Position numbers and translations under genes: made by a program. Shown one piece after another: positions 13,670 to 41,513 of a stretch of DNA of 64,000 nucleotides. Where the stretch lies: IMG/VR virus record IMGVR_UViG_3300020331_000002, one strand, 5' to 3'. The DNA comes from a virus (Duplodnaviria > Caudoviricetes). The notes beneath the pieces were generated by a model. That model ran no database searches. It was not told the origin of the DNA and was given only the letters and a program-made list of their open reading frames with translations. Each line of letters opens with the position of its first letter. Positions within the stretch are counted from its first letter, which is position 1.

Positions 13670-13856
13670 ACTTCGCTGCTCCGTTATGAATAAGGCCCGG
13701 GCGCTTTGAGCAGAACAGACGGCCAGTGCTGTATCTACCCATAACGCCCTTGAAGGCATAGAATCATCCCTCTATATGTTTTTTGCGCACGGCATACGCG
13801 CCGCGGTGGGATTCGCACCCAAATGAAACATGCCAACCAATTTAACTGGTTGAAAA

Positions 13857-13980
13857 GGGTGGAGAGCAAGGAATTGAACCTCATCTTCCGGCTTGGGCTG
13901 AATGAAAACATGCTGTTAGAATACTAATACAGTATTCGTTATTTTCGTGGCCGGCGTGCAACCGTTACACTTTCTCTCCA
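13857..13980 (-). ncRNA. tRNA-like RNA with 50-nt insert in anticodon loop carrying the UAACAGCA module
   Basis: Acceptor UGGAGAG/CUCUCCA, D arm GUG/CAC with GG, AC stem CCGGC/GCCGG, T arm with UUCAAUU loop; 57-nt loop instead of 7. Confidence 0.8.
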
Positions 13981-18787: not shown

Positions 18788-18908
18788 TGGTAGGGAGTGC
18801 AGGACTCGAACCTGCGACCCACGGCTTACAAGGCAATAAGGATATGCTGTTAGAATACTAAAACAGTATTCATGTTTACGTTGCTCTACCCAACTGAGCT
18901 AACTCCCT
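18788..18908 (-). ncRNA. tRNA (UGU anticodon, Lys-like body) interrupted by 44-nt insert carrying the UAACAGCA module
   Basis: Perfect acceptor, D and T arms and CCA; removing 18835-18878 restores ACGGC-CUUGUAA-GCCGU. Confidence 0.85.
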
Positions 18909-19119
18909 AGAAGTTTCTGATGAACTGTCTTAAGTCTTTGACACCTCCACATCCGAGTATTATTAATCCGCCTAGCGGCACTGCGCTAAAAATACCCACA
19001 AGCACGTTAAACGCGAAACAGTATATTATAGCCATTGCCAAACCCACATTAAGGGTCAATATGCCTGCCATCAAAAGCATTGCACAAAAACGGATTAATG
19101 TTTTAAATGTATTTTCCAT
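18907..19119 (-). CDS. small membrane protein
   Basis: 70 aa hydrophobic. Confidence 0.6.
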   Translation of the reverse strand: MENTFKTLIRFCAMLLMAGILTLNVGLAMAIIYCFAFNVLVGIFSAVPLGGLIILGCGGVKDLRQFIRNF

Positions 19120-19140
19120 TTTCTTAGTATGAACCCAAGC

Positions 19141-19416
19141 TTACTTTTTGTCAAGGAATTTTTTAAAATCACTGTAAATTTCTATGCCAGCTTCTTCAAC
19201 TTCCGCCTGTGTCAAAAACGCAGAGTCTGAGTACAAGGTACCGTCGCGTTTAATGAAGTAAAACCGATCATCGACTTTGCCCAAAACAGCACCCCGGCCC
19301 AAAAGTCCGGGCACCATATCAATCAACGAGGCTGCGCCAAACACGGTTGCCTTAAACAGTTCAGCATCAGGCACGATACCGATTAAAATGTCAGTGACGT
19401 CATTTATAGTAGCCAT
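19141..19416 (-). CDS. hypothetical protein
   Basis: 91 aa with GAGG RBS. Confidence 0.7.
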   Translation of the reverse strand: MATINDVTDILIGIVPDAELFKATVFGAASLIDMVPGLLGRGAVLGKVDDRFYFIKRDGTLYSDSAFLTQAEVEEAGIEIYSDFKKFLDKK

Positions 19417-19781: not shown

Positions 19782-19888
19782 GGTTGCCGGGCCAAGGAAT
19801 CGAACCTCGTTCGGGTGCATACTTGCGAAGTTTGCTGCGACAAATCTAAACAGACTTAATGGAGTCCCTCAGAATCATTCACCCGGCA
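19782..19888 (-). ncRNA. tRNA-like RNA (acceptor + T arm) with CGCAGCAA module and no anticodon arm
   Basis: UGCCGGG/CCCGGCA stem, CGAGG-UUCGAUU-CCUUG T arm, hairpin-GUCGCAGCAA-hairpin core. Confidence 0.65.
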
Positions 19889-33808: not shown

Positions 33809-33905
33809 TAGTACCAGGTACGGGATTCGAACCCGCAGGGTCATTATTGCAGACCGCGACAAGCACTTCCGTGATGCCGCGCCTTCCCATTCGGCGCAAC
33901 CTAGT
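33809..33905 (-). ncRNA. atypical tRNA-like gene (CGG loop, A33, long variable arm, ACUA end)
   Basis: Paired acceptor, D and T arms; loop CACGGAA; about 25-nt variable region. Confidence 0.65.
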
Positions 33906-38131: not shown

Positions 38132-38144
38132 AAAATATATTTTG

Positions 38145-38228
38145 CACAGCGGACGGGTCTCGAACCCGCAATGCGATATTCGCGCTGCCTTGAAAGGGCA
38201 GTGACTTTACCAGTTTGTCCACCGCTGT
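38145..38228 (-). tRNA. tRNA-Glu(UUC) with long variable arm, CCA not encoded
   Basis: CUGCC-CUUUCAA-GGCAG; variable GCGA-AUA-UCGC; ends G-CAA. Confidence 0.85.
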
Positions 38229-38300: not shown

Positions 38301-39011
38301 CTATGCGCGTCTGCGAACAGCTATTCCTAGTACCGCTAAAAGCGCAAGCGCTAATGATCCCGGTTCCGGAACCGCTGTTACGCCATCTAACTGCAAATCA
38401 TATGAACGCTGCATTAGCCCAGTATCAGGCGATGCAATATTACCGCGCACTTGGATGGCTCCTATATTTGTGAAGTCAGTATTACTAAATTCACTCGAAA
38501 GGAAAAACGCATCACGTCCTGGACGATCAACGCCCGGTATCGGTAACTCAACAGTTTCGGCGGTTCCGTTAGGACCTGACCAAAACGTTACGTCAAACCA
38601 AGCATCCAAATCTGATTCAATCATAGTTGTAATGAATTTTATCGGGCCGCCGATAGCAGTTAAGTCAAGTCCGCCTAAGCCGAAAGGATTAATTGCATTT
38701 GATCCGTCAACGCCGTCCCATTGAATGGTAAACATTGATTCATTACCTGCGCCTGAACTAAAGAAAAAGTTATCAGCCGCTACGTTTACAGAAGCGCCTT
38801 GGTTGTACACGTCAACAACGCTTGTTATTTCTAAATCTCGTTCTCCACCGATCATAGAACCCAATACCGAGCTAAACAAAGTTTCGCCTTGCATCACTGC
38901 TAATGGTCCTTGATCATCAGAGAAGTCGTCGATTGTTATCATACCTGCGTTGGCCGAGGTAGTTATACCCAGGGCCAATACAGCGCCTAACAATAGAGAT
39001 TTTATTTTCAT
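38301..39011 (-). CDS. PEP-CTERM sorting-domain protein
   Basis: Signal peptide (ANA/G), C-terminal VPEPGSLALALLAVLGIAVRRRA. Confidence 0.92.
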   Translation of the reverse strand: MKIKSLLLGAVLALGITTSANAGMITIDDFSDDQGPLAVMQGETLFSSVLGSMIGGERDLEITSVVDVYNQGASVNVAADNFFFSSGAGNESMFTIQWDGVDGSNAINPFGLGGLDLTAIGGPIKFITTMIESDLDAWFDVTFWSGPNGTAETVELPIPGVDRPGRDAFFLSSEFSNTDFTNIGAIQVRGNIASPDTGLMQRSYDLQLDGVTAVPEPGSLALALLAVLGIAVRRRA

Positions 39012-39643: not shown

Positions 39644-39728
39644 TGGTGGGTTGGGTGGGATTCGAACCCACGAAGCTTTACGCGCTAGATTAAAAGTCTA
39701 GTATCTTTAACCACTCGATCACCAACCC
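39644..39728 (-). tRNA. tRNA-Lys(UUU) with long variable arm
   Basis: CUAGA-CUUUUAA-UCUAG; 13-nt variable region; CCA. Confidence 0.88.
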
Positions 39729-39893: not shown

Positions 39894-39985
39894 TGGCGGA
39901 CGGTGCTGGATTTGAACCAGCGCGGGGGATATTCTCCACCTCCGGGTTAACAGCCCGGCGCAATCGGCCACTATGCGAACCGCCC
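39894..39985 (-). tRNA. tRNA-Asn(GUU) with long variable arm
   Basis: CCGGG-CUGUUAA-CCCGG; about 20-nt variable hairpin; CCA. Confidence 0.88.
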
Positions 39986-40165: not shown

Positions 40166-40239
40166 TGGTGCCGGCGGAGAGAATCGAACTCCCGTAGACG
40201 CATTACAAGTGCGCTGCATGGCCACTGTGCTACGCCGGC
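40166..40239 (-). tRNA. tRNA-Thr(UGU)
   Basis: GCCGGCG/CGCCGGC-A-CCA, CUUGUAA loop. Confidence 0.92.
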
Positions 40240-40863: not shown

Positions 40864-40918
40864 AGGCTAGTTTTTTTAAAACGCCAATGTTTTTTAAAAA
40901 AATTGCTGTTCCTAGCCT
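40864..40918 (-). ncRNA. AACAGCAA module copy A
   Basis: AGGCUAG-GAACAGCAA-[U7A4...U4A7 hairpin]-CUAGCCU. Confidence 0.75.
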
Positions 40919-40947
40919 AAGTCGTTTGTTCTAAAAACATGGTGTCT

Positions 40948-40975
40948 ATTATACATGCTTTTAAAACGTTGTCAA
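40948..40975 (-). promoter_or_regulatory. sigma70-like promoter driving module A
   Basis: TTGACA-N16-TATAAT. Confidence 0.8.
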
Positions 40976-41009
40976 GAACTTTTTTCAACTTTCTTGACTT
41001 TAATAAGTC

Positions 41010-41074
41010 GGGTTGCTTTTACTAGGTTCGAAGGATGAGTTCGAATTTTCGTAAAGTTTTGCTGTTAGCAACCC
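41010..41074 (-). ncRNA. AACAGCAA module copy B
   Basis: GGGUUGC-UAACAGCAA-[UUCGAA...UUCGAA hairpin region]-GCAACCC-GACUUA. Confidence 0.75.
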
Positions 41075-41304
41075 ATAATAGATATACACCGTGATGCACA
41101 TGTATTATGAGTAAAAATAGCAGCGAACTATCCAAAGGGTTGGGAGTTCTCCAGATAGTCGCTACCCAAGAGAGTGGATGAACACTCTAGACAAACAAAA
41201 TAAGTCGGGCTACATTATCTAAAGTCAAATTAAAAGTTTGATGATCGATAATATTGCTGTTAGTAGCCCATAATAGATATACACCGTGATGCACATGTAT
41301 TATG
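41072..41304. repeat. 38-nt perfect direct repeat (41072-41109 and 41267-41304), itself a hairpin
   Basis: cccataatagatatacaccgtgatgcacatgtattatg twice. Confidence 0.95.
41207..41269 (-). ncRNA. AACAGCAA module copy C
   Basis: GGGCUAC-UAACAGCAAU-[AUUAUC...GAUAAU]-GUAGCCC-GACUUA. Confidence 0.78.
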
Positions 41305-41449
41305 GGTTCTAACATTACACCCGGTTTTGGGTCCTAAATTGCCGTACTCCCGGGGTAACATTAAAAATTAACGCCGTATCCAAATATATGCGTTCAGGTC
41401 AAATCGGATAAAAATCACCTACTAACACATAAGAAGAACTTTGTTAAAC

Positions 41450-41513
41450 TGGATGCATTAAGTACTGGTTTGATTAGAAGTCAAAAGTAATTAAATGTTG
41501 CTGTTAGCATCCA
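41450..41513 (-). ncRNA. AACAGCAA module copy D
   Basis: UGGAUGC-UAACAGCAAC-[AUUUAAUUACU...AGUACUUAAU]-GCAUCCA. Confidence 0.78.

What the first reader, a model, noticed from the sequence alone, without database searches (positions are those of the whole stretch)
18788..18908. tRNA interrupted by a 44-nt insert carrying the same UAACAGCA module
An otherwise perfect tRNA (Lys-like body, CCA) has 44 nt inserted in the 5' strand of the anticodon stem; deleting 18835-18878 gives ACGGC-CUUGUAA-GCCGU. The insert is a hairpin GAAUACU/AGUAUUC followed directly by UAACAGCA, a circular permutation of the 41-kb module. It is far too short for a group I intron, and an intact Thr(UGU) already exists at 40166. 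So it is either a protein-spliced phage tRNA intron or a tRNA mimic displaying a protein-binding module, similar in logic to YrlA Y RNAs.
Basis: partly seen in the sequence, partly recalled or inferred. Interest (0 to 1): 0.88.

Follow-up and report, generated by a model that had tools for sequence, protein, structure and literature searches.

The report
Circularly permuted phage Y-RNA tRNA mimic
The "tRNA with a 44-nt insert" is real, but it is most likely not an intron-bearing tRNA: it is a rearranged (circularly permuted) member of the Y-RNA-like tRNA mimics that phages carry together with a Ro60-like RNA-binding protein.

Summary
A 121-nt minus-strand gene (18908..18788) is a perfect cloverleaf ending in ACCA once 18878..18835 is removed.

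The insert does not look like an intron. When the RNA is rotated at its hairpin loop, it aligns along its whole length with YrlA-like (Y-RNA-like) tRNA mimics of many phages. The insert's 7-bp hairpin corresponds to their covarying terminal stem. UAACAGCA corresponds to their conserved ACAGCAA motif. The "anticodon arm" corresponds to a stem-loop they all carry.

In the relatives the acceptor stem is closed and the Y stem is open. Here the reverse holds.

- **Protein partner.** These RNAs co-occur with DUF2828/DUF7788 proteins. The copy in a 97%-identical complete phage genome folds like Ro60.
- **Motif link.** Helix plus ACAGCAA sits beside 51 of 79 DUF2828 genes, on the gene strand.
- **No splicing evidence.** That genome has no splicing endonuclease and no RtcB. 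Contigs of four metatranscriptome runs show only the unspliced form.
- **Variable anticodon.** It is UGU here and GAU in the close relative.

Verdict: a new topological variant of a known kind. Binding to the protein is inferred, not shown.

Other first-stage notes on this genome had already flagged the related modules.

The parts
18788..18908 (-). The whole 121-nt tRNA-shaped RNA gene: a permuted YrlA-like RNA with an open 7-bp acceptor stem and an encoded ACCA 3' end
   Evidence: Sequence. ARAGORN -i call and insert-deleted cloverleaf. Rotated alignment to phage YrlA-like units.
18835..18878 (-). The 44-nt 'insert' between tRNA positions 29 and 30. It equals the Y-stem module plus the two internal-loop strands of the family.
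   Evidence: UAAACAU aligns with the A-rich 3' linker of the relatives. UAUCCUUAUU aligns with their 5' linker before (U)GCC.
18853..18871 (-). Hairpin GAAUACU-GUUUU-AGUAUUC.
   Evidence: helix of 7-9 bp in every lineage, with at least six different sequences; only the loop differs in the close relative.
18845..18852 (-). UAACAGCA. This is the family's conserved (A/U)CAGCAA motif directly 3' of the helix, and the inferred recognition site of the Ro60-like protein.
18821..18834 (-). Anticodon-like stem-loop GC-CUUGUAA-GCCGU. The last three bases pair with ACG at 18879-18881. The loop has U33 and A37, and the displayed triplet is UGU.
   Evidence: The close relative has CUGAUAA (GAU).
18879..18908 (-). 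5' half: acceptor 5' strand, D arm, A26 and ACG
18788..18820 (-). 3' part: variable loop GGGUC, T arm GCAGG-UUCGAGU-CCUGC, acceptor 3' strand ACUCCCU, discriminator A, CCA
   Evidence: Nearly all tRNA genes of this phage also encode CCA.
19126..19154 (-). Sigma-70-like promoter (TTGACA-17-CATACT) upstream of a 70-aa hydrophobic ORF (19119..18907). The ORF's stop codon UAG overlaps base 1 of the RNA.
   Evidence: Contigs of three metatranscriptome runs end at 19112-19119.

Best explanation
The gene encodes a circularly permuted Y-RNA-like tRNA mimic of the phage YrlA-like family.

In ordinary members, the 5' and 3' ends pair into a terminal helix that is followed at once by ACAGCAA. The tRNA-like domain hangs off this helix and its acceptor stem is closed by a loop. 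Here the terminal helix is closed by a loop (hairpin GAAUACU/AGUAUUC, then UAACAGCA). The acceptor stem is open, with a normal tRNA 5' end and an encoded ACCA. Read linearly, the Y module therefore looks like a 44-nt insert at position 29/30 of a tRNA.

Inferred mechanism:
1. The RNA is transcribed with a small upstream ORF.
2. It is cut out by RNase P and 3' trimming like the phage's real tRNAs.
3. It stays unspliced.
4. Its helix-plus-ACAGCA module is bound by the phage's Ro60-like DUF2828/DUF7788 protein.
5. The complete tRNA mimic (T arm, D arm, CCA end and an anticodon-like loop) engages a tRNA-recognising partner. Candidates are an exoribonuclease as in Ro-Y RNA-PNPase complexes, a tRNA repair or modification enzyme, or an anticodon nuclease.

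The most economical origin is a tandem pair of YrlA-like units from which the outer halves were lost.

Shown here: homology, permutation, co-occurrence with the protein family, the Ro60 fold of that protein, and unspliced RNA-library contigs. Inferred: binding, processing and the partner.
For: 1. The only database match of the region is to Enterococcus Schiekvirus phages, and it spans the 3' half plus part of the insert. There the same sequence is a 3'-half / closed-acceptor / 5'-half unit lying directly upstream of a DUF2828 gene. It scores 45.9 bits, E=5.5e-9, against Rfam YrlA.

2. A pattern scan of IMG/VR found 21 loci. All except this phage lineage have YrlA topology. They hit YrlA at 33-48 bits.

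3. Rotated at the hairpin loop, the RNA aligns with these units over its full length. The helix next to ACAGCAA is 7-9 bp in every lineage, with different sequences in each.

4. DUF7788 is present in 14 of 19 RNA-bearing contigs, and in 5 of 5 that are at least 90% complete. The 306.5-kb genome of the 97%-identical phage encodes a 478-aa DUF2828+DUF7788 protein. That protein is 32% identical to the Enterococcus phage protein. Only 710 of 50,697 phage records hold a homologue.

5. The protein model has pLDDT 88 and pTM 0.87. Its best 13 PDB matches are all Ro60.

6. ACAGCAA preceded by a helix of at least 7 bp occurs 98 times, in 51 of 79 loci, on the gene strand within 3 kb of DUF2828 genes. 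The opposite strand has 14, and control words have 1-23. It is also seen beside the gene in a Felixounavirus, a Listeria phage and a mycobacteriophage.

7. No tRNA splicing endonuclease and no RtcB were found in the relative's complete genome. RNA-run contigs are colinear with the DNA, with no joints.

8. The hairpin stem and the motif are invariant between the two genomes, while the anticodon changes from UGU to GAU.

9. Precedent: M. smegmatis YrlA is opened by RNase P in its acceptor loop and receives CCA in vivo (PMC4201824).
Against: - No binding, processing or abundance data exist for this RNA.
- The Ro60-like gene lies about 100 kb away rather than adjacent. It was seen in the near-identical genome, not in the window itself.
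- The unrotated RNA scores only 14 bits against Rfam YrlA.
- The motif differs from the canonical Ro60 site GNCGAAN0-1G.
- Removing the insert gives a flawless cloverleaf with a natural anticodon loop, which is what an intron-bearing gene would look like.
- Contigs can miss a rare or very short spliced form, and RNA libraries can contain DNA.
- Part of the relatives' set was collected with a pattern that fixed UGCC and GCCG. Conservation of those bases is therefore partly by construction.
Confidence: 0.7

Rival explanations
1. It is a genuine intron-containing tRNA. The 44 nt are removed by a phage or host endonuclease and a ligase (for example the 690-aa protein with an RNA_ligase domain, or host RtcB). 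The product is a 77-nt tRNA-Thr(UGU) that decodes.
For: - Exact removal gives a canonical cloverleaf with a 5-bp anticodon stem, U33, A37 and CCA.
- The relative's genome has one PF09414 ligase-domain protein.
- The anticodon loops in both genomes are natural-looking, Thr UGU and Ile GAU.
Against: - The insert is homologous, part by part, to the Y stem and loop strands of YrlA-like RNAs that have no open acceptor and cannot be tRNAs. One example has its acceptor closed by a UACG tetraloop.
- No splicing endonuclease and no RtcB were found.
- I could draw no bulge-helix-bulge motif at the junctions.
- At 44 nt it is far too short for a group I intron.
- Intact tRNA-Thr(UGU) and tRNA-Ile(GAU) already exist in the window.
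- A two-base anticodon switch between 97%-identical genomes is odd for a decoding tRNA whose acceptor stem is unchanged.
- No spliced contig was found in four RNA runs, although short cellular tRNA contigs were assembled there.
Confidence: 0.08
2. It works as an unspliced tRNA decoy or sensor independently of the Ro60-like protein. The displayed natural anticodon loop and CCA end would bait a host anticodon nuclease, a tRNA-modifying enzyme or an aminoacyl-tRNA synthetase. The hairpin and ACAGCA would serve stability or processing.
For: - Family members display loops that resemble natural anticodon loops. By my reading they look like Phe, Arg, Lys, Asp, Thr and Ile loops. U33 is present in 12 of 16 and purine 37 in 16 of 16.
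- The loop switches identity between close relatives.
- The element sits among phage tRNA genes.
Against: The helix-ACAGCAA element also occurs without any tRNA-like domain (41-kb array, Listeria phage). It tracks DUF2828 genes statistically. The module is therefore tied to that protein rather than to the tRNA part.
Confidence: 0.12
3. It is a non-functional recombination scar or decaying pseudogene, left by deletion within a tandem array of YrlA-like units.
For: - Tandem arrays exist in relatives. ARAGORN even pairs halves of different units there.
- The compact permuted form was found only in this lineage.
- The RNA region has 6 differences in 121 nt against about 2 per 100 in the flanks.
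Against: - All seven acceptor pairs, the D, T and anticodon stems, the hairpin stem, the motif and ACCA are intact in both genomes. The changes fall in loops and linkers.
- Two further open-acceptor scaffolds carry the module in the same phage.
- The region is present at uneven depth in RNA libraries, with contig ends at a predicted promoter.
Confidence: 0.08

Closest known systems
YrlA (Rfam RF02553), the bacterial and phage Y-RNA-like tRNA mimic encoded near Ro60 (Chen et al. 2014, PMC4201824)
   Same: - It has a T arm, D arm and acceptor-like stem copied from tRNA.
- It has a helix with a conserved 5'-side motif linked to a Ro60-family protein.
- Relatives of this RNA are sub-threshold YrlA hits.
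- M. smegmatis YrlA is opened by RNase P and gains CCA, which gives the same open acceptor end.
   Different: - The topology is rotated: the ends lie in the acceptor stem and the Y stem is a closed hairpin.
- It is a single chain with CCA encoded.
- The motif is ACAGCA(A/U), not GNCGAAN0-1G.
- A full anticodon-like stem-loop is kept.
- The Rfam score is 14 bits against a threshold of 69.
- The protein gene is not adjacent.
Deinococcus radiodurans Yrn1
   Same: It is a Y RNA whose T- and D-like arms are oriented differently from YrlA relative to the RNA ends. This shows that permuted tRNA mimicry exists among Y RNAs.
   Different: In Yrn1 the Ro-binding stem itself takes the place of the acceptor stem. 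Here the acceptor stem is an ordinary tRNA acceptor and the binding module branches from the anticodon stem.
Thermus phage phiLo Ro60 with Yrl1/Yrl2 (PMC12135203), and Bas63 gp130 (PMC11482910)
   Same: A phage-encoded Ro60 homologue with phage-encoded Y-like RNAs. phiLo Ro60 is the best structural match of the DUF2828 model. Bas63 gp130 is a Ro60-like protein next to a tRNA cluster.
   Different: The phiLo Yrl RNAs are stem-bulge-stem RNAs with a CGAA motif, encoded next to the gene. No permuted or tRNA-ended form is described there.
Permuted tRNA genes of Cyanidioschyzon merolae, non-canonical archaeal tRNA introns, and two-piece permuted tmRNA
   Same: These are tRNA-shaped RNAs whose gene order is circularly permuted or interrupted at unusual positions (my own knowledge, not tested here).
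   Different: Those are processed into functional tRNA or tmRNA by a splicing endonuclease and ligase, or by cleavage. Here no such enzymes or motifs were found, and the 'insert' is the conserved functional module.

Membership tests
YrlA / Y-RNA-like RNAs (RF02553) | Scores at or above the Rfam gathering threshold (69 bits) | tested here: not met
   14.1 bits, E=5.8, for the region as encoded. Unpermuted relatives score 33-48 bits. The rotated sequence could not be scored with the tools.
YrlA / Y-RNA-like RNAs (RF02553) | A tRNA-like domain with T arm, D arm and acceptor-like stem | tested here: met
YrlA / Y-RNA-like RNAs (RF02553) | The 5' and 3' ends pair to form the protein-binding stem, and the acceptor-like stem is closed | tested here: not met
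   The ends are in the acceptor stem and the equivalent stem is a closed hairpin. This is a circular permutation.
YrlA / Y-RNA-like RNAs (RF02553) | A conserved GNCGAAN0-1G motif in the 5' strand of the stem (PMC4201824) | tested here: not met
   The motif here and in the DUF2828-linked relatives is (A/U)CAGCA(A/U).
YrlA / Y-RNA-like RNAs (RF02553) | Encoded in a genome with, and usually next to, a Ro60 orthologue | tested here: inconclusive
A Ro60-fold DUF2828/DUF7788 protein is encoded in the 97%-identical complete genome, about 100 kb away. Pfam TROVE itself gives no hit. The window's own genome was not available.
YrlA / Y-RNA-like RNAs (RF02553) | Bound by the Ro60 protein in vivo | not testable with these tools
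   This needs RIP or EMSA.
Intron-containing tRNA (group I or endonuclease-spliced) | A group I intron core (P1-P9, over about 200 nt), or a bulge-helix-bulge motif at the splice sites | tested here: not met
   The insert is 44 nt. Rfam finds no intron family. By inspection, only a 3-bp UAA/UUA pairing is possible at the junctions.
Intron-containing tRNA (group I or endonuclease-spliced) | A splicing endonuclease and an RtcB-type ligase are available | tested here: not met
   PF01974 and PF01139 are absent from the relative's complete genome. One PF09414 ligase-domain protein is present. The host is unknown.
Intron-containing tRNA (group I or endonuclease-spliced) | A spliced form is present in RNA | tested here: inconclusive
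   No joint was seen in contigs of four metatranscriptome runs, and the unspliced form was assembled. Contigs cannot exclude rare forms.
Canonical tRNA | A cloverleaf recognised by tRNA models as encoded | tested here: not met
   Default ARAGORN and Rfam tRNA do not call it. It is called only after the insert is removed or introns are allowed.
Ro60 / TROVE-vWA proteins (for the partner protein) | A HEAT-repeat ring plus a vWA domain fold | tested here: met
   Model pLDDT 88. The top 13 PDB hits are all Ro60, with TM 0.35-0.58 over roughly 490-565 alignment columns.

The most novel reading that the evidence does not exclude
Phage Ro60-like particles may carry complete tRNA impostors whose displayed anticodon loop acts as a specificity cassette.

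The loops resemble natural ones. I read them as Thr UGU here, Ile GAU in a 97%-identical phage, and Phe-, Arg-, Lys- and Asp-like loops in other phages.

This permuted form, with a true 5' end and CCA, could even be aminoacylated.

The particle would bait or sense enzymes that attack or repair particular tRNAs, such as anticodon nucleases of host defence. The two-base anticodon switch between near-identical phages would then be a trace of an arms race.
Probability: 0.15. Interest if true: 0.85.

Novelty: new variant of a known kind. Interest (0 to 1): 0.6.

Why it matters
Y RNAs and Ro60 are well known, but how they work in bacteria and phages is still largely open.

This element gives a natural, single-chain version of a Y-RNA tRNA mimic with genuine tRNA ends and an anticodon-like loop. 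That makes two things directly testable: whether such mimics are charged, and what the tRNA part recruits.

The work also yields a simple, testable recognition signature for the large DUF2828 branch of Ro60-like proteins. The signature is a helix followed by (A/U)CAGCAA. Homologues of the protein occur in 710 phage records, and at least 6,980 database proteins match it at E <= 1e-10.

The result also warns annotators that "intron-containing" or odd tRNA calls in phage tRNA clusters can be Y-like RNAs.

Tried and rejected
- **Rfam at gathering threshold.** It finds only tRNAs in the window.
- **Canonical TROVE (PF05731).** It gave no hit in the relative's genome or in 19 RNA-bearing contigs. 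The link appeared only with DUF2828/DUF7788.
- **Neighbouring ORFs.** Pfam scans of 30 window ORFs, including both neighbours of the element, gave nothing relevant.
- **RNAs near the DUF2828 gene.** No RNA family lies near that gene in the relative's genome.
- **A mistyped pattern.** My first IMG/VR pattern had a one-base spacing error and found nothing. The corrected pattern worked.
- **A second pairing.** I considered that UAACAG pairs with a downstream CUUGUUA/CUGUA. I dropped it because it is not kept in several lineages and cannot nest with the covarying helix.
- **A permissive window scan.** Scanning the window for any NCAGCAN with a 7-bp helix was too noisy to use: 37 hits on the minus strand and 27 on the plus strand. 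One apparent extra module at 13732 lies in coding sequence.
- **Thermodynamic folding.** The fold of the 122 nt alone is not significant, z=-1.46.
- **Sequence search against PDB.** It missed Ro60. Only the fold search found it.
- **Other permuted copies.** ARAGORN with introns on about 120 loci found no other compact permuted copy.
- **Complex prediction.** It was not used, because the question is RNA-protein binding.

Full report
**What is there**

On the minus strand, 18908..18788 encodes a 121-nt RNA. Its parts, 5' to 3':
- acceptor strand AGGGAGU, then UA
- D arm GCUC-AGUUGGGUA-GAGC, then A
- ACG
- 44 nt (18878..18835)
- GC, loop CUUGUAA, GCCGU
- variable loop GGGUC
- T arm GCAGG-UUCGAGU-CCUGC
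- acceptor strand ACUCCCU, discriminator A, CCA

The 44 nt read UAAACAU, hairpin GAAUACU-GUUUU-AGUAUUC, UAACAGCA, UAUCCUUAUU.

Default ARAGORN and Rfam tRNA miss the gene. The insert-deleted sequence is a textbook 77-nt cloverleaf.

The window is part of a large phage genome with 23 or more tRNA genes, all on the minus strand. Nearly all of them encode CCA, as this element does.

**Close relative**

An IMG/VR contig of 306.5 kb with terminal repeats, rated complete (G001), is about 95-98% identical to the window in the two stretches aligned (A1, A2), but not the same sequence.

Its copy of the element has 6 differences in 121 nt:
- one in the 5' linker
- one in the hairpin loop
- one in the 3' linker
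- one in the variable loop
- two adjacent ones that turn the anticodon UGU into GAU

ARAGORN then calls the insert-deleted form tRNA-Ile. All stems, the motif and ACCA are unchanged.

A second tRNA-shaped element at 13980..13857 carries the same core (27 of 28 nt) in place of its anticodon loop. Its tRNA body has diverged about 10% between the two genomes, with a weakened T stem in G001. Its 30-nt module is invariant.

A third scaffold at 19887..19782 has a hairpin followed by GCAGCAA. The 41-kb array has four units of helix, (U/G)AACAGCAA, AU-rich hairpin and closing strand.

**Homology to Y-RNA-like tRNA mimics**

The only megablast match of the region in 50,697 phage records is a 55-nt stretch in Enterococcus Schiekvirus phages. 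That stretch covers the 3' half of the tRNA and the 3' part of the insert.

In those phages the homologous sequence is arranged as 3' half, acceptor stem closed by a short loop, then 5' half. It sits in a promoter-to-terminator unit directly upstream of a DUF2828 gene. Rfam YrlA matches it at 45.9 and 34.3 bits. That is significant, but below the 69-bit threshold.

A pattern built from the shared part found 21 IMG/VR loci. Apart from one evident chance hit and this phage lineage, all are YrlA-type units. Their layout is:
- helix strand [1]
- (N)NACAGCAA
- 8-10 nt, then (U)GCC
- a 7-nt loop, then GCCGU
- variable loop, T arm, closed acceptor hairpin (a UACG tetraloop in one group), D arm
- ACG, an A-rich linker
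- helix strand [1']

They hit YrlA at 33-48 bits and no other family better.

Helix [1]/[1'] is 7-9 bp in every lineage, with different sequences in each: GAAUC, GAAACC, AGACAU, GGUUAG, UUCCAC, AGGCAUU and their complements. This is clear covariation.

**The permutation**

I rotated the window's RNA so that it starts at AGUAUUC and ends at GAAUACU. It then aligns with these units along its whole length, part for part:
- hairpin 3' strand = [1]
- UAACAGCA = the motif
- UAUCCUUAUUGCC = the linker plus UGCC
- CUUGUAA = the loop, identical in one group
- ACG-UAAACAU = ACG plus the A-rich linker
- GAAUACU = [1']

What is opened instead is the acceptor hairpin.

A tandem pair of units would give exactly this gene if the 5' half of the first and the 3' half of the second were kept. 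Tandem units exist in relatives, and ARAGORN even pairs halves across them. This origin is my inference.

Among about 120 loci and 678 predicted tRNAs, only the window and G001 have the compact permuted form.

**The protein partner**

G001 encodes a 478-aa protein with DUF2828 (118 bits) and DUF7788 (141 bits) domains. It lies between a metallophosphoesterase and an HD-domain protein, about 100 kb from the element. This layout matches an earlier first-stage note on the window's own genome.

The protein is 32% identical over its full length to the Enterococcus phage protein.

Its AlphaFold model has pLDDT 88 and pTM 0.87. The best 13 PDB matches are all Ro60: Thermus phage phiLo, Xenopus, human and D. 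radiodurans. E-values run from 1e-8 to 7e-5 and TM-scores are mostly 0.45-0.58 (0.35 for D. radiodurans), over roughly 490-565 alignment columns. Pfam's TROVE model itself does not hit.

Homologues occur in 710 of 50,697 phage records (1.4%). Mycobacteriophage homologues are annotated as Ro-like RNA-binding proteins.

Of the 19 contigs that carry the RNA, 14 have DUF7788, including all 5 that are at least 90% complete. One more has the gene cut by the contig end. The remaining four are three fragments (6-15% complete) and the contig that holds the chance hit.

**The motif tracks the protein**

ACAGCAA lies next to the DUF2828 gene, on its strand only, in three further phages: a Felixounavirus, Listeria phage LP-124 and mycobacteriophage Clautastrophe. 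In each case it directly follows a helix strand whose partner lies downstream.

I then examined 79 further IMG/VR loci with 3 kb on each side of the gene. ACAGCAA preceded within 0-3 nt by the 5' strand of a helix of at least 7 bp occurs 98 times on the gene strand. That covers 51 loci, 18 of them with clusters. The opposite strand has 14 occurrences and no clusters. Control words give 1-23. UCAGCAA behaves like a variant of the motif.

This supports, but does not prove, that helix plus (A/U)CAGCAA is the binding site of this branch of Ro60-like proteins. It would be analogous to the GNCGAAN0-1G site of cellular Y RNAs (PMC4201824).

**Against an intron**

- G001 has no tRNA splicing endonuclease and no RtcB. 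It has one weak RNA-ligase-domain protein.
- At 44 nt the insert cannot be a group I intron, and I could draw no bulge-helix-bulge motif.
- Intact tRNA-Thr(UGU) and tRNA-Ile(GAU) are present in the window.
- Contigs from four metatranscriptome runs cover the element colinearly with the DNA and show no joints.
- The short, very deep contigs that overlap 18799-18834 belong to a different, cellular tRNA with another acceptor stem.

In three of the runs the contigs end at 19112-19119. This coincides with the start predicted from a TTGACA-17-CATACT promoter. Depth drops beyond that point, which fits transcription of a unit containing a 70-aa hydrophobic ORF and the RNA.

Contigs cannot prove ends or exclude rare forms, and RNA libraries can hold DNA. 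This evidence is therefore moderate.

**How it probably works**

Established knowledge gives three precedents:
- Y RNAs bind Ro60 through a helix with a conserved motif, and use their other module to gate the ring or to tether partners such as PNPase.
- M. smegmatis YrlA is cut by RNase P in its acceptor loop and receives CCA.
- phiLo Ro60 binds phage Yrl RNAs and forms complexes with host PNPase.

A Ro60-like protein of phage Bas63, next to its tRNA cluster, counters the Ppl defence system.

By analogy, the 121-nt RNA would be released like a tRNA and remain unspliced. It would bind the DUF2828 protein through its hairpin and ACAGCA, and present a complete tRNA mimic to a tRNA-recognising partner.

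The family keeps a 7-nt loop with anticodon-loop features: U33 in 12 of 16 units and purine 37 in 16 of 16. Several loops resemble natural anticodon loops. The loop differs between the two near-identical genomes. This hints that the displayed anticodon matters, but it remains speculation. Part of that sample was collected with a pattern that fixed the neighbouring bases.

**Verdict**

The feature is real, conserved and probably expressed. It is best filed as a new topological variant, a circular permutation with true tRNA ends, of the known Y-RNA-like tRNA mimics that accompany Ro60-like proteins in phages.

It fails strict YrlA membership on topology, motif and Rfam score, but it is homologous to sub-threshold members and most likely works like them.

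Other first-stage notes on this genome had already pointed to the sibling elements and to the Ro60-like gene. I checked those points here, on the window or on the near-identical genome.

Noticed in passing
window 13857-13980 (minus): A second open-acceptor tRNA-shaped RNA with the same hairpin plus UAACAGCA core inside a 57-nt replacement of the anticodon loop. It has its own extended -10 promoter just upstream. In the close relative the tRNA body has diverged about 10% and the T stem is weakened, while the 30-nt module is invariant.
   Followed up: partly
window 19782-19887 (minus): A third acceptor/T-arm scaffold with hairpin AAGUCU-GUUU-AGAUUU followed by GCAGCAA, and no clear D arm.
   Followed up: no
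window 40864-41513 (minus): An array of four mini Y-like units upstream of the tRNA cluster. Each is a covarying 6-9-bp helix, then (U/G)AACAGCAA, an AU-rich hairpin and the closing strand, behind sigma-70-like promoters. The layout matches tRNA-less units in Listeria phage LP-124 and in L023.
   Followed up: partly
79 IMG/VR loci L039-L117; L035, L036, L037: A helix followed by (A/U)CAGCAA is a strand-specific signature of DUF2828 (Ro60-like) gene neighbourhoods in very different phages. It is present in 51 of 79 loci. I did not find this motif described in the two Ro60/Y-RNA papers I searched by keyword (PMC4201824, PMC12135203).
   Followed up: partly
window 39644-39728, 38144-38228, 39894-39985, 33811-33905 (minus): Several of the phage's tRNAs that are normally short (Lys, Glu, Asn, Pro-CGG) are 85-95 nt long, with long extra arms.
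   Followed up: no
window 18907-19119 (minus): A 70-aa very hydrophobic ORF whose stop codon UAG overlaps the first base of the RNA. It probably shares the RNA's promoter.
   Followed up: partly
RNA runs X12, X16, X17, X19 over window 18799-18834: Very deep short contigs of a cellular tRNA (it reads as Thr-UGU to me) match the element's anticodon-3'/T-arm segment at 33-34 of 36 nt, but have a different acceptor stem and D loop. This may be the host's or another abundant bacterium's tRNA.
   Followed up: no
L016 329-414, L022 890-975, L024 5077-5162: Phages of the L014 group carry a tRNA with anticodon UUA ('Stop') that ARAGORN calls with a 12-nt insert, UCAGCCUCCGAC. The same phages have tmRNA and RAGATH-34 matches.
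   Followed up: no
L036 2414-2965: A ROOL RNA match (87 bits, below the 99-bit threshold) lies between tRNA genes and the DUF2828 gene of Listeria phage LP-124. An RtcB-like ligase gene lies 1.3 kb downstream of the DUF2828 gene.
   Followed up: no
window 38301-39011 (minus): A 236-aa ORF inside the tRNA cluster ends in a PEP-CTERM motif (25 bits). This hints at a Gram-negative host with exosortase.
   Followed up: no
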